NCBI RefSeq assembly: GCF_009914755.1 | Contig: NC_060934.1 | Direction: 5' to 3' (one strand) | From: the human T2T-CHM13v2.0 reference genome, Homo sapiens | DNA: 64,000 nucleotides | Part shown: piece after piece, positions 24,531 through 24,770 of the stretch | Layout: every line of letters begins with the position of its first letter | Position numbering within the stretch: position 1 is the stretch's first letter | The notes under the pieces: model-generated | The model's input: the letters and a program-made list of their open reading frames with translations, nothing else | What the model was told of the DNA's origin: nothing | The model's database searches: none | Program-made: the position numbers and the translations under genes

Positions 24531-24647
24531 GCGGTCCAGTTTACATCGCTTTCCAGACAACTGGAATTTGAGGCAACTTCTATGACAGTGATCCCTGTGT
24601 TTCACCTGGCATACATTCTTATCATACTGTTTGCAGTCACATCATGC
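24531..24647 (+). pseudogene. PTCHD3 pseudogene: PTCHD3 exon 2 fragment with mutated splice acceptor
   Basis: [39 protein letters not shown] continues exon 1 in phase; preceded by CGG instead of CAG (24528-24530); truncated at the RAB18 junction. Confidence 0.9.
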
Positions 24648-24770
24648 TATTGTTGCTGCAAGTTCTGGATCAAAAGTATTATCTGTGAAACTCAAGAGCA
24701 GGCTGGACTTGCCCGCCCCACTCTCGCCAATGATGAGGATCTTCAGGGTGGTCAGCGCATCCTCATCCAT
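24642..24770 (-). pseudogene. RAB18 pseudogene: RAB18 exon1+exon2 processed fragment; 42-aa [45 protein letters not shown]
   Basis: 37/41 identity to recalled RAB18 N-terminus ([41 protein letters not shown]); no intron; GC-rich RAB18-like 5'UTR at 24771-24847. Confidence 0.93.

What the first reader, a model, noticed from the sequence alone, without database searches (positions are those of the whole stretch)
24640..24710. RAB18/PTCHD3 fusion point falls exactly at a RAB18 exon end and a cryptic antisense AG acceptor
Seen: minus strand reads GCAGCAACAATAG|CATGATGTGACTGC, and RAB18 homology stops at coding nt 124 (24647). The earlier junction AAGTCCAG|CCTG (24703/24702, nt 68/69) has no intron. 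Recalled: RAB18 exons 1 and 2 end at c.68 and c.124. PTCHD3 Ser-Cys-Phe (TCA TGC TT) reads ...AG|CATGA on its antisense strand, supplying an acceptor AG. Inference: the fusion arose by splicing (cis in a rearranged parent, or back-/trans-splicing at the native locus), not by DNA breakage.
Basis: partly seen in the sequence, partly recalled or inferred. Interest (0 to 1): 0.75.

Follow-up and report, generated by a model that had tools for sequence, protein, structure and literature searches.

The report
Retrocopy of spliced RAB18–antisense-PTCHD3 RNA
This stretch is an old, dead reverse-transcribed copy of a spliced hybrid RNA that joined the first two RAB18 exons to the antisense strand of PTCHD3, and a rearranged duplicate elsewhere on chromosome 10 still carries the splice signals that explain the join.

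Summary
On the minus strand, RAB18 exon 1 (ends c.68) is joined without an intron to exon 2 (ends c.124). Exon 2 is joined at its last base to the antisense strand of PTCHD3 exon 2, directly after an AG.

The unit (window 24847-20869) is an L1-type processed retrocopy with a 12-nt target-site duplication and an A8 tail.

Two independent sister retrocopies, on chr2 and chr6, carry the same RAB18/PTCHD3 junction but a different downstream splice junction.

A genomic duplicate at chr10:29.44 Mb (probably PTCHD3P1) holds the RAB18 promoter, exon 1, intron 1, exon 2 and 2 kb of intron 2, followed by PTCHD3 antisense sequence. There, canonical AG or GT sits at every junction seen in the retrocopies. 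The native PTCHD3 locus lacks three of these four signals.

So the fusion was made by cis-splicing in a rearranged parent, not by trans- or back-splicing at the native locus and not by DNA breakage at the junction.

Caveats: today that locus has the middle exon inverted and is truncated at its 3' side, and the tree does not resolve whether it or a lost sister was the direct template.

It is a non-coding relic and a new member of a known kind (PIPSL-like).

The parts
24848..24859 (-). 5' target-site duplication (12 nt) of the retrocopy
   Evidence: The same 12-mer recurs at 20866-20855, directly after the A-tail.
24703..24847 (-). RAB18 exon 1-derived part (5'UTR plus c.1-c.68; ATG at 24770)
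   Evidence: 85.0% identity to C10:27534701-27534831. It ends at the native exon 1 donor position.
24647..24702 (-). RAB18 exon 2-derived part (c.69-c.124), with no intron on either side
   Evidence: 94.9% identity to C10:27540272-27540330. The native exon is 27540275-27540330, flanked by CAG| and |GTAAGC.
24510..24646 (-). 'Exon C': antisense of PTCHD3 exon 2 (without its last 6 nt) plus 21 nt of PTCHD3 intron 1. The TGA stop at 24644-24642 ends the RAB18 frame after 42 codons.
   Evidence: 93.2% identity to C10:27442086-27442232. In the chr10:29.44 Mb duplicate this block is flanked by CTGCAG| and |GTATAT.
20877..24509 (-). 'Exon D', the long terminal exon. It contains the end of a ~1 kb insertion specific to the duplicate locus, then antisense PTCHD3 intron 1, exon 1 and about 1.4 kb upstream of the PTCHD3 ATG. 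It is interrupted by two later Alu insertions and a ~600 bp deletion.
   Evidence: Its first bases match chr10:29451650 onward, directly after T15-ACAG in the duplicate. It is colinear with C10:27442883-27445902. It ends at the same parental position as the chr2 copy.
23784..23785 (-). AG of the alternative acceptor (D') used by the chr2 and chr6 sister copies. It is retained here as exonic sequence.
   Evidence: Alignment: window CCTAG|AGAGC, duplicate CCCAG|TGAGC, native CCCAA|TGAGC. The chr2 and chr6 copies join exon C directly to this point.
21851..22141 (.). Alu inserted after retroposition
   Evidence: Parental matches on both sides overlap by 15 nt (27445285-27445299), which is its target duplication. 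It is absent from the chr2 copy and the parent.
20972..21266 (.). Second Alu inserted after retroposition
   Evidence: Parental matches overlap by 18 nt (27445831-27445848).
20869..20876 (-). Remnant poly(A) tail (A8)
   Evidence: It follows the last parental base. The parent continues with unrelated sequence (TTGCTGCG...), and the chr2 copy ends at the same point with A7.
20855..20866 (-). 3' target-site duplication
   Evidence: Identical 12-mer to 24859-24848.

Best explanation
Window 24847-20869 (minus strand) is an L1-mediated processed retrocopy of a spliced, polyadenylated, non-coding chimeric RNA.

That RNA was transcribed from a rearranged duplicate. In it, the RAB18 CpG-island promoter, exon 1, intron 1, exon 2 and about 2 kb of intron 2 had been placed upstream of the 5' part of PTCHD3 in antisense orientation.

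The RAB18 exon 2 donor was spliced in cis to the first usable acceptor downstream. That acceptor is an AG created by the reverse complement of the PTCHD3 exon 2 / 5' splice-site region.

A 137-nt middle exon followed. It was then joined to one of two alternative terminal exons.

The surviving representative of this source gene is at chr10:29.44 Mb (probably PTCHD3P1). It has since suffered an inversion of the middle-exon block and a 3' truncation.

Shown: the exon boundaries, the retrocopy hallmarks, the three independent copies, and the splice signals in the duplicate.

Inferred: the pre-inversion orientation, and that this locus (or a lost sister of it) was the template.
For: 1. RAB18 exon ends at c.68 and c.124 coincide exactly with the two junctions.

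2. Retrocopy hallmarks are present: a 12-nt TSD, an A8 tail, and a 5' end 77 nt upstream of the ATG.

3. The own-genome search with 501 bases gave 10 matches (10 of 10 candidates scored). Two of them span the junction, at chr2:170246999-170247314 (88%) and chr6:110466418-110466735 (87%).

4. The flanks of these copies are unrelated to the window's and to each other, and their 5' ends differ. They are therefore independent insertions of one pre-formed RNA junction.

5. The chr2 and chr6 copies join exon C to a different downstream point than the window does. This indicates alternative 3' splice sites.

6. chr10:29439958-29449311 is colinear with RAB18 27533624-27542405, introns included (83-91% identity). 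It is followed by PTCHD3 sequence.

7. In that locus the signals are:
- CTGCAG| before exon C;
- |GTATAT after exon C;
- T15-ACAG| before exon D;
- CCCAG| before D'.
All sit at exactly the retrocopy junctions. The native PTCHD3 locus has CTAAAG|, |ATAAAT, no insertion and therefore no D acceptor, and CCCAA|.

8. The window shares with that locus a ~1 kb insertion flanked by an 8-nt direct repeat. The insertion is absent from native PTCHD3. They also share a breakpoint at parental position ~27443997 that the chr2 copy and the parent lack.

9. The duplicate keeps an intact CpG island: 69 CpGs in 801 bp, o/e 0.85, against 71 and 0.81 in RAB18. The retrocopies have decayed to o/e 0.22-0.43. This is consistent with a long-lived germline-active promoter.
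Against: 1. In the present assembly the exon C block (chr10:29449596-29450867) is inverted relative to the RAB18 exons and exon D. Today's locus therefore cannot make this RNA. The earlier orientation is inferred, not observed.

2. PTCHD3 homology in that locus stops at parental 27443997, whereas the retrocopies run on to ~27445936.

3. Substitution patterns do not place the window with the duplicate. Over 888 ungapped sites, 12 sites group {native, window}, 6 group {duplicate, window} and 4 group {native, duplicate}. The window is slightly closer to the native locus (K2P 0.097) than to the duplicate (0.110).

4. 16 sites unite chr2 with chr6. A simple budding model does not predict this.

5. 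No canonical AATAAA or ATTAAA was seen within about 40 nt of the shared 3' end.

6. The AG at the junction could come from either partner, so this one junction alone does not exclude a 2-nt microhomology join.

7. No outgroup species and no RNA data were available.
Confidence: 0.85

Rival explanations
1. The direct template was not the chr10:29.44 Mb locus but a lost sister or progenitor. One candidate is the junction of an in-situ tandem duplication spanning PTCHD3 intron 2 to RAB18 intron 2. It could have exchanged sequence with native PTCHD3 and later been deleted. The chr10:29.44 Mb locus would then be only a DNA copy of it. The mechanism (cis-splicing in a rearranged parent) is the same.
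For: - The window is closer to native PTCHD3 than to the duplicate, and 12 against 6 sites favour {native, window}.
- The duplicate today is inverted and truncated.
- The order RAB18 intron 2 followed by PTCHD3 intron 2 antisense is what a head-to-tail duplication of 27441183-27542489 would create (inference).
Against: - No such locus exists in this genome: all 10 matches are accounted for.
- The window and the duplicate share the insertion and the 27443997 breakpoint.
- 12 against 6 sites is not decisive, and 5 of the 12 are CpG-context sites prone to parallel decay.
Confidence: 0.3
2. Back-splicing or trans-splicing at the native locus: the RAB18 exon 2 donor joined to an antisense transcript of native PTCHD3, which lies about 92 kb upstream on the same strand.
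For: The native antisense strand does have AG at the junction, with a modest pyrimidine tract. The window's exon C is 93% identical to the native sequence.
Against: - The native locus has AT, not GT, after exon C.
- It has AA, not AG, at the D' acceptor.
- It lacks the insertion that supplies the D acceptor and the first ~560 nt of the window's exon D.
- A cis-capable rearranged locus exists.
- The ancestral native bases are unknown.
Confidence: 0.05
3. A DNA-level or reverse-transcriptase-level join. Either a RAB18 processed fragment was ligated into a PTCHD3 copy through AG microhomology, or L1 reverse transcriptase switched template between two RNAs.
For: There is a 2-nt AG overlap at the junction. 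L1 or LTR template switching is known to make chimeric retrocopies (passages in PMC5470649).
Against: - The join is at the exact last base of RAB18 exon 2.
- The same join occurs in three insertions with unrelated flanks and different 5' ends.
- Two further junctions also sit at AG/GT signals of the duplicate.
- The duplicate holds the RAB18 exons with their introns.
Confidence: 0.03

Closest known systems
PIPSL (retrocopy of an intergenically spliced PIP5K1A-PSMD4 transcript)
   Same: Exons of two genes were joined at the RNA level. The chimera was then reverse-transcribed and integrated by L1 (passages of PMC3747384).
   Different: - Here the second partner is read antisense and the product is non-coding (stop 2 codons after the junction).
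- The two genes are not co-oriented neighbours, so a rearranged duplicate was needed.
- At least three retrocopies in two splice forms were made.
- No evidence of function or selection.
Ordinary L1-mediated processed pseudogene
   Same: Intron loss, a poly(A) remnant, a 12-nt target-site duplication, dispersed location, CpG decay, and later Alu insertions.
   Different: The template was a chimeric RNA from a rearranged pseudogene locus, not the mRNA of a single functional gene. Most of it is unspliced antisense genomic sequence of PTCHD3.
Template-switch chimeric retrocopies
   Same: Two unrelated transcribed sequences lie inside one insertion with one tail and one target duplication.
   Different: Junctions there are not expected at exon ends. 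Here all junctions sit on splice signals and recur in independent insertions.
Named pseudogenes PTCHD3P1, PTCHD3P2, PTCHD3P3
   Same: The chr10:29.44 Mb, chr2:170.25 Mb and chr6:110.47 Mb relatives probably correspond to these names:
- PTCHD3P1 is listed beside SVIL (PMC12558498 passage).
- PTCHD3P2 is given at chr2:170.62 Mb in an older build (PMC9112484 passage).
- PTCHD3P3 is given at chr6:109.61 Mb in an older build (PMC6733812 passage).
The correspondence is inferred from approximate position only.
   Different: The window's copy has no row in the RefSeq table supplied with the finding. None of the papers seen mentions a RAB18 part or a splicing origin.

Membership tests
L1-mediated processed retrocopy | Parental introns absent at exon-exon junctions | tested here: met
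   RAB18 intron 1 (5.4 kb) is absent at 24703/24702. Exon 2 ends at its native donor.
L1-mediated processed retrocopy | 3' poly(A) tail at the end of parental homology | tested here: met
   A8 at 20876-20869. The chr2 copy ends at the same parental base with A7. Both tails are short.
L1-mediated processed retrocopy | Target-site duplication flanking the insertion | tested here: met
   Identical 12-mers at 24859-24848 and 20866-20855.
L1-mediated processed retrocopy | Polyadenylation signal upstream of the tail | tested here: not met
   No AATAAA or ATTAAA was seen by eye in the last ~40 nt of the window, the chr2 copy or the parent. No formal scan was run.
Retrocopy of a chimeric spliced transcript (PIPSL type) | Sequences of two genes joined exactly at a splice site of at least one partner | tested here: met
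   The RAB18 exon 2 donor (c.124) is joined to an AG-preceded position in antisense PTCHD3.
Retrocopy of a chimeric spliced transcript (PIPSL type) | A genomic arrangement that allows one primary transcript to contain both parts | tested here: inconclusive
   The native order and distance do not allow it: PTCHD3 is 92 kb upstream. The chr10:29.44 Mb duplicate has both parts in the right order, but the middle exon is inverted today.
Retrocopy of a chimeric spliced transcript (PIPSL type) | Chimeric open reading frame | tested here: not met
   The frame stops 2 codons after the junction, giving 42 codons.
Template-switch chimera | Junction unrelated to splice sites and unique to one insertion | tested here: not met
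   The junction is at an exon end and is shared by three insertions with unrelated flanks.
Trans- or back-spliced RNA of the native loci | Canonical signals at all junctions in the native loci | tested here: not met
   The native locus has AT after exon C, AA at D', and no D acceptor. Ancestral states were not testable.

The most novel reading that the evidence does not exclude
The RAB18-promoter-driven antisense-PTCHD3 unit (the chr10:29.44 Mb locus, and possibly its retrocopies) was, or still is, a functional trans-acting antisense RNA gene. A housekeeping CpG-island promoter has been kept intact for tens of millions of years. It drives more than 1 kb of RNA complementary to PTCHD3 exons 1-2. 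This could regulate PTCHD3 or feed small-RNA pathways in the germline.
Probability: 0.07. Interest if true: 0.6.

Novelty: new member of a known kind. Interest (0 to 1): 0.4.

Why it matters
The retrocopies are fossils of an RNA. They preserve two splice forms of a chimeric gene whose present-day locus can no longer make them.

Together with the intron-bearing duplicate, they give an unusually complete worked example of three things:
- how a rearrangement puts a strong promoter and donor in front of foreign antisense sequence;
- how the reverse complement of a 5' splice site can serve as a 3' splice site;
- how such transcripts get copied around the genome.

In practice, it shows that the loci named as PTCHD3 pseudogenes are RAB18/PTCHD3 chimeras, and it adds an unannotated fourth copy.

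No function is indicated.

Tried and rejected
- Pfam on three translated pieces (native PTCHD3 exon 1 frame, two window frames) gave 0 families for 3 of 3. The Patched identity was instead shown by a PF02460 scan of the genome.

- The notes of earlier readers were not open.

- I tried to explain the inversion in the duplicate as Alu-Alu recombination. Alu sequence lies at both ends of the inverted block, and the far end carries an Alu-monomer piece best matching the RAB18 intron 2 Alu (81.9%). But the orientations and hybrid structure could not be resolved cleanly, so this remains a suggestion.

- I tested whether the ~600 bp missing at window 22858-22817 is a spliced intron. There is no GT/AG at the parental boundaries. 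The region holds short tandem repeats (periods 30 and 21). It is a deletion.

- I tested whether 398 bp present in the duplicate (29451741-29452138) but absent from the window is a further intron. The 3' side has a good acceptor (TTATCTTCCAG|), but the 5' side has no GT today. This is unresolved.

- The chr6 copy's 3' end: homology stops at 110469299, where a high-copy interspersed repeat begins (371 candidates, 40 scored). An A-rich run and an 11-nt imperfect direct repeat lie 135 nt further on. I did not settle whether that is its true tail.

Full report
**1. Observation**

The minus strand of the window reads ...AAGTCCAG|CCTGCTC... at 24703/24702 and ...GCAACAATAG|CATGATGTGACTGC... at 24647/24646.

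A stop-to-stop frame on that strand ends in [42 protein letters not shown]. Among solved chains its best match is human Rab-18 (1x3s_A, E 1.1e-17, residues 1-41). The next best is Rab-35 at 5e-7.

The window's genome could be searched. The RAB18 locus lies at C10:27.53 Mb.
- Exon 1 ends at 27534831 (GTCCAG|GTGAGG), 68 nt from the ATG.
- Exon 2 is 27540275-27540330 (TTTCAG|CCTG...CAATAG|GTAAGC), that is c.69-c.124.

Beyond the junction the window matches C10:27442086-27442232 at 93.2%. That lies in a minus-strand Patched-family gene. PF02460 hits at C10:27429149-27429424 (the best of 10 genome-wide matches) and at 27433414-27433575. A 430-codon open frame covers its first coding exon. Pfam on that frame alone found nothing.

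The native + strand reads GCTTTTTACCTAAAG|CATGATG. Its reverse complement, TCATGCTTTAG|GTAAAAAGC, is the 3' end and donor of PTCHD3 exon 2. The fusion point therefore lies 6 nt inside that exon. The antisense AG and its pyrimidine tract are the mirror image of a 5' splice site.

**2. What the unit is**

Mapping the window against the fetched parental regions shows one colinear unit on the minus strand:
- RAB18 exon 1 (24847-24703);
- RAB18 exon 2 (24702-24647);
- a 137-nt block antisense to PTCHD3 exon 2 plus 21 nt of its intron 1 ('exon C', 24646-24510);
- a long stretch ('exon D', 24509-20877).

Exon D runs antisense through PTCHD3 intron 1, exon 1 and about 1.4 kb beyond the PTCHD3 start, to parental position ~27445936.

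Two Alus (22141-21851 and 21266-20972) were inserted later. Parental matches on either side of them overlap by 15 and 18 nt.

The unit ends in A8 (20876-20869). It is flanked by identical 12-mers at 24859-24848 and 20866-20855.

It is therefore an L1-type processed retrocopy of about 3.4 kb of RNA. PTCHD3's own intron 1 is retained, so the PTCHD3 part was never spliced in the sense direction. It was read as antisense RNA.

**3. Sister copies**

A 501-base query across the junction gave 10 matches (10 of 10 candidates scored). Two of them span RAB18 exon 1, exon 2 and exon C: chr2:170246999-170247314 (88%) and chr6:110466418-110466735 (87%).

Both have the same exon 2/exon C junction.
- Their flanks are unrelated to the window's and to each other.
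- Their 5' ends differ.
- The chr2 copy ends at the same parental base as the window, with A7 and an imperfect direct repeat.

In both, exon C is followed not by the window's exon D start but by sequence equivalent to window 23783 onward. This skips 726 nt.

So one pre-formed RNA junction was retroposed at least three times, in two splice forms.

The chr6 copy's 3' end is disturbed. Homology stops at 110469299, where a high-copy repeat begins.

**4. The rearranged parent**

A fourth relative at chr10:29.44 Mb is not processed.

chr10:29439958-29449311 is colinear with RAB18 27533624-27542405. That is 1.1 kb of upstream sequence, exon 1, the whole of intron 1, exon 2 and 2.07 kb of intron 2. 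Identity is 83.3% over the main 6.2-kb block and 90.8% over the promoter and exon 1.

It is followed by PTCHD3 sequence:
- 27442462-27441183, inverted;
- then 27442761-27442890 and 27442883-27443976 in the antisense (RAB18-co-oriented) direction, separated by a ~1 kb insertion flanked by an 8-nt direct repeat.

In this locus every retrocopy junction sits on a canonical signal:
- The RAB18-like exon 1 and exon 2 keep GT donors, and exon 2 keeps its CAG acceptor.
- Exon C is preceded by CTTTTTACCTGCAG| and followed by |GTATAT.
- The window's exon D begins directly after T15-ACAG| inside the insertion.
- The chr2/chr6 exon D' begins directly after TTTTTTAATCCCAG|.

At the same positions the native PTCHD3 locus has CTAAAG|, |ATAAAT, no insertion at all, and CCCAA|.

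Four specified dinucleotides at four specified positions have a chance expectation of about (1/16)^4 (my arithmetic).

The window also carries the right-hand part of the insertion (24509-23950 matches the duplicate, not the native locus). It shares with the duplicate a breakpoint at parental ~27443997, after which both read TGAAA-A, whereas the native locus and the chr2 copy continue with PTCHD3 sequence.

Finally, the duplicate retains a CpG island: 69 CpGs in 801 bp, o/e 0.85, against 71 and 0.81 in RAB18. The retrocopies have decayed to o/e 0.22-0.43. This fits a promoter that stayed active in the germline.

**5. Mechanism**

Shown: exact exon ends, retrocopy hallmarks, three independent copies, two splice forms, and a genomic locus with the right parts and signals.

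Inferred sequence of events:
- A rearrangement joined RAB18 intron 2 to PTCHD3 intron 2 in antisense. The order is what the junction of a head-to-tail duplication of roughly 27441183-27542489 would give.
- Transcription from the RAB18-derived promoter ran into foreign sequence.
- The exon 2 donor used the first good acceptor, the mirror image of the PTCHD3 exon 2 donor. In the duplicate this acceptor is CAG rather than AAG.
- A GT 137 nt further on defined a middle exon.
- That exon was joined to either of two acceptors. One is supplied by a T-rich end of an insertion.
- The RNA was polyadenylated about 1.4 kb beyond the PTCHD3 start and copied by L1.

The RAB18 frame stops two codons after the junction, so the RNA was non-coding.

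**6. Difficulties**

Today the exon C block in the duplicate is inverted (29449596-29450867, extending to an Alu piece at 29450868-29450961). Alu sequence lies at both ends. The far end best matches the RAB18 intron 2 Alu (81.9%), as expected if the block was once contiguous with RAB18 intron 2. I could not reconstruct the event cleanly.

PTCHD3 homology in the duplicate also stops at 27443997.

Substitution data do not settle the genealogy. K2P distances over ~800 sites:
- native-window 0.097;
- duplicate-window 0.110;
- native-duplicate 0.145;
- chr2 and chr6 to everything else 0.164-0.188.

Site patterns over 888 ungapped sites, with counts excluding CpG-context sites in brackets:
- 16 sites unite chr2 and chr6 (9);
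- 12 unite native and window (7);
- 6 unite duplicate and window (3);
- 4 unite native and duplicate (3).

The rare structural characters (insertion, breakpoint) favour window plus duplicate. The point substitutions lean weakly the other way.

The direct template may therefore have been a lost sister locus rather than this one. The mechanism is unaffected.

The distances suggest that chr2 and chr6 are the older insertions and the window the younger. All are tens of millions of years old. That estimate rests on primate neutral rates that I recall, not on a calculation made here.

**7. Comparison with what is known**

The closest described case is PIPSL. It is a retrocopy of an RNA that joined exons of two neighbouring genes (passages of PMC3747384; passages of the review PMC5470649).

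This case differs in several ways:
- it is antisense for one partner;
- it is non-coding;
- it depends on a prior rearrangement;
- it is multi-copy, in two splice forms.

Full-text searches found nothing on it:
- RAB18 + PTCHD3 + pseudogene gave 1 paper, on lizards (listing only).
- PTCHD3P1 gave 8 papers (listing).
- PTCHD3P2/P3/P4, RAB18P1 and the two 'pseudogene' phrases gave 6 papers, with none for PTCHD3P4, RAB18P1 or the phrases.

Passages place PTCHD3P1 beside SVIL, PTCHD3P2 at chr2:170.62 Mb and PTCHD3P3 at chr6:109.61 Mb in older builds. The three relatives are therefore probably these named pseudogenes. I infer that from position only.

The window's copy has no row in the supplied RefSeq table. 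Subscription journals and databases such as GENCODE or RetrogeneDB were not searchable.

**8. Verdict**

The splicing interpretation is supported and narrowed to cis-splicing in a rearranged duplicate.

It is a neat, well-documented relic and not a new kind of element. Interest 0.4.

Noticed in passing
window 24340-24040 (minus strand); L042 (chr10:29452139-29452617): The ~1 kb insertion shared by the window and the chr10:29.44 Mb locus contains tandemly repeated units of about 110 nt. To my recollection they resemble the 3' part of old L1 elements. Its T15 run at one end supplies the pyrimidine tract of the exon D acceptor. The repeat family was not identified with a tool.
   Followed up: partly
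window 22858-22817: About 600 bp of the PTCHD3 N-terminal coding region (parental 27443995-27444610) is replaced by roughly 30-40 nt. The left breakpoint coincides with the point where PTCHD3 homology ends in the chr10:29.44 Mb locus.
   Followed up: yes
L042, chr10:29451741-29452138: A 398-bp segment is present in the duplicate but absent from the window (between 24421 and 24419). Its 3' edge is a good acceptor (TTATCTTCCAG|), but no GT is seen at the 5' edge. It could be a further intron or a later indel.
   Followed up: partly
L041, chr10:29441000-29442000: The RAB18-derived promoter copy keeps a full CpG island (o/e 0.80-0.86), although neighbouring intron sequence is about 17% diverged from RAB18. 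Its exon 1 copy has a 2-nt deletion in the reading frame.
   Followed up: partly
L046, chr6:110469291-110469396: The chr6 sister copy loses parental homology where a ~107-nt high-copy interspersed repeat begins (371 first-look candidates, 40 scored, 79-87% identity). An AATAAA, an A-rich run and an 11-nt imperfect repeat of the 5' flank follow. This could be a different 3' end or a later insertion.
   Followed up: partly
window 20895-20881 (minus strand): A short (TG)n run replaces a T-rich stretch of the parent just upstream of the poly(A) remnant.
   Followed up: no
L042, chr10:29453596-29453918: The duplicate carries three tandem copies of a ~100-nt PTCHD3 exon 1 segment (parental 27443877-27443997) just before its homology ends.
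   Followed up: no
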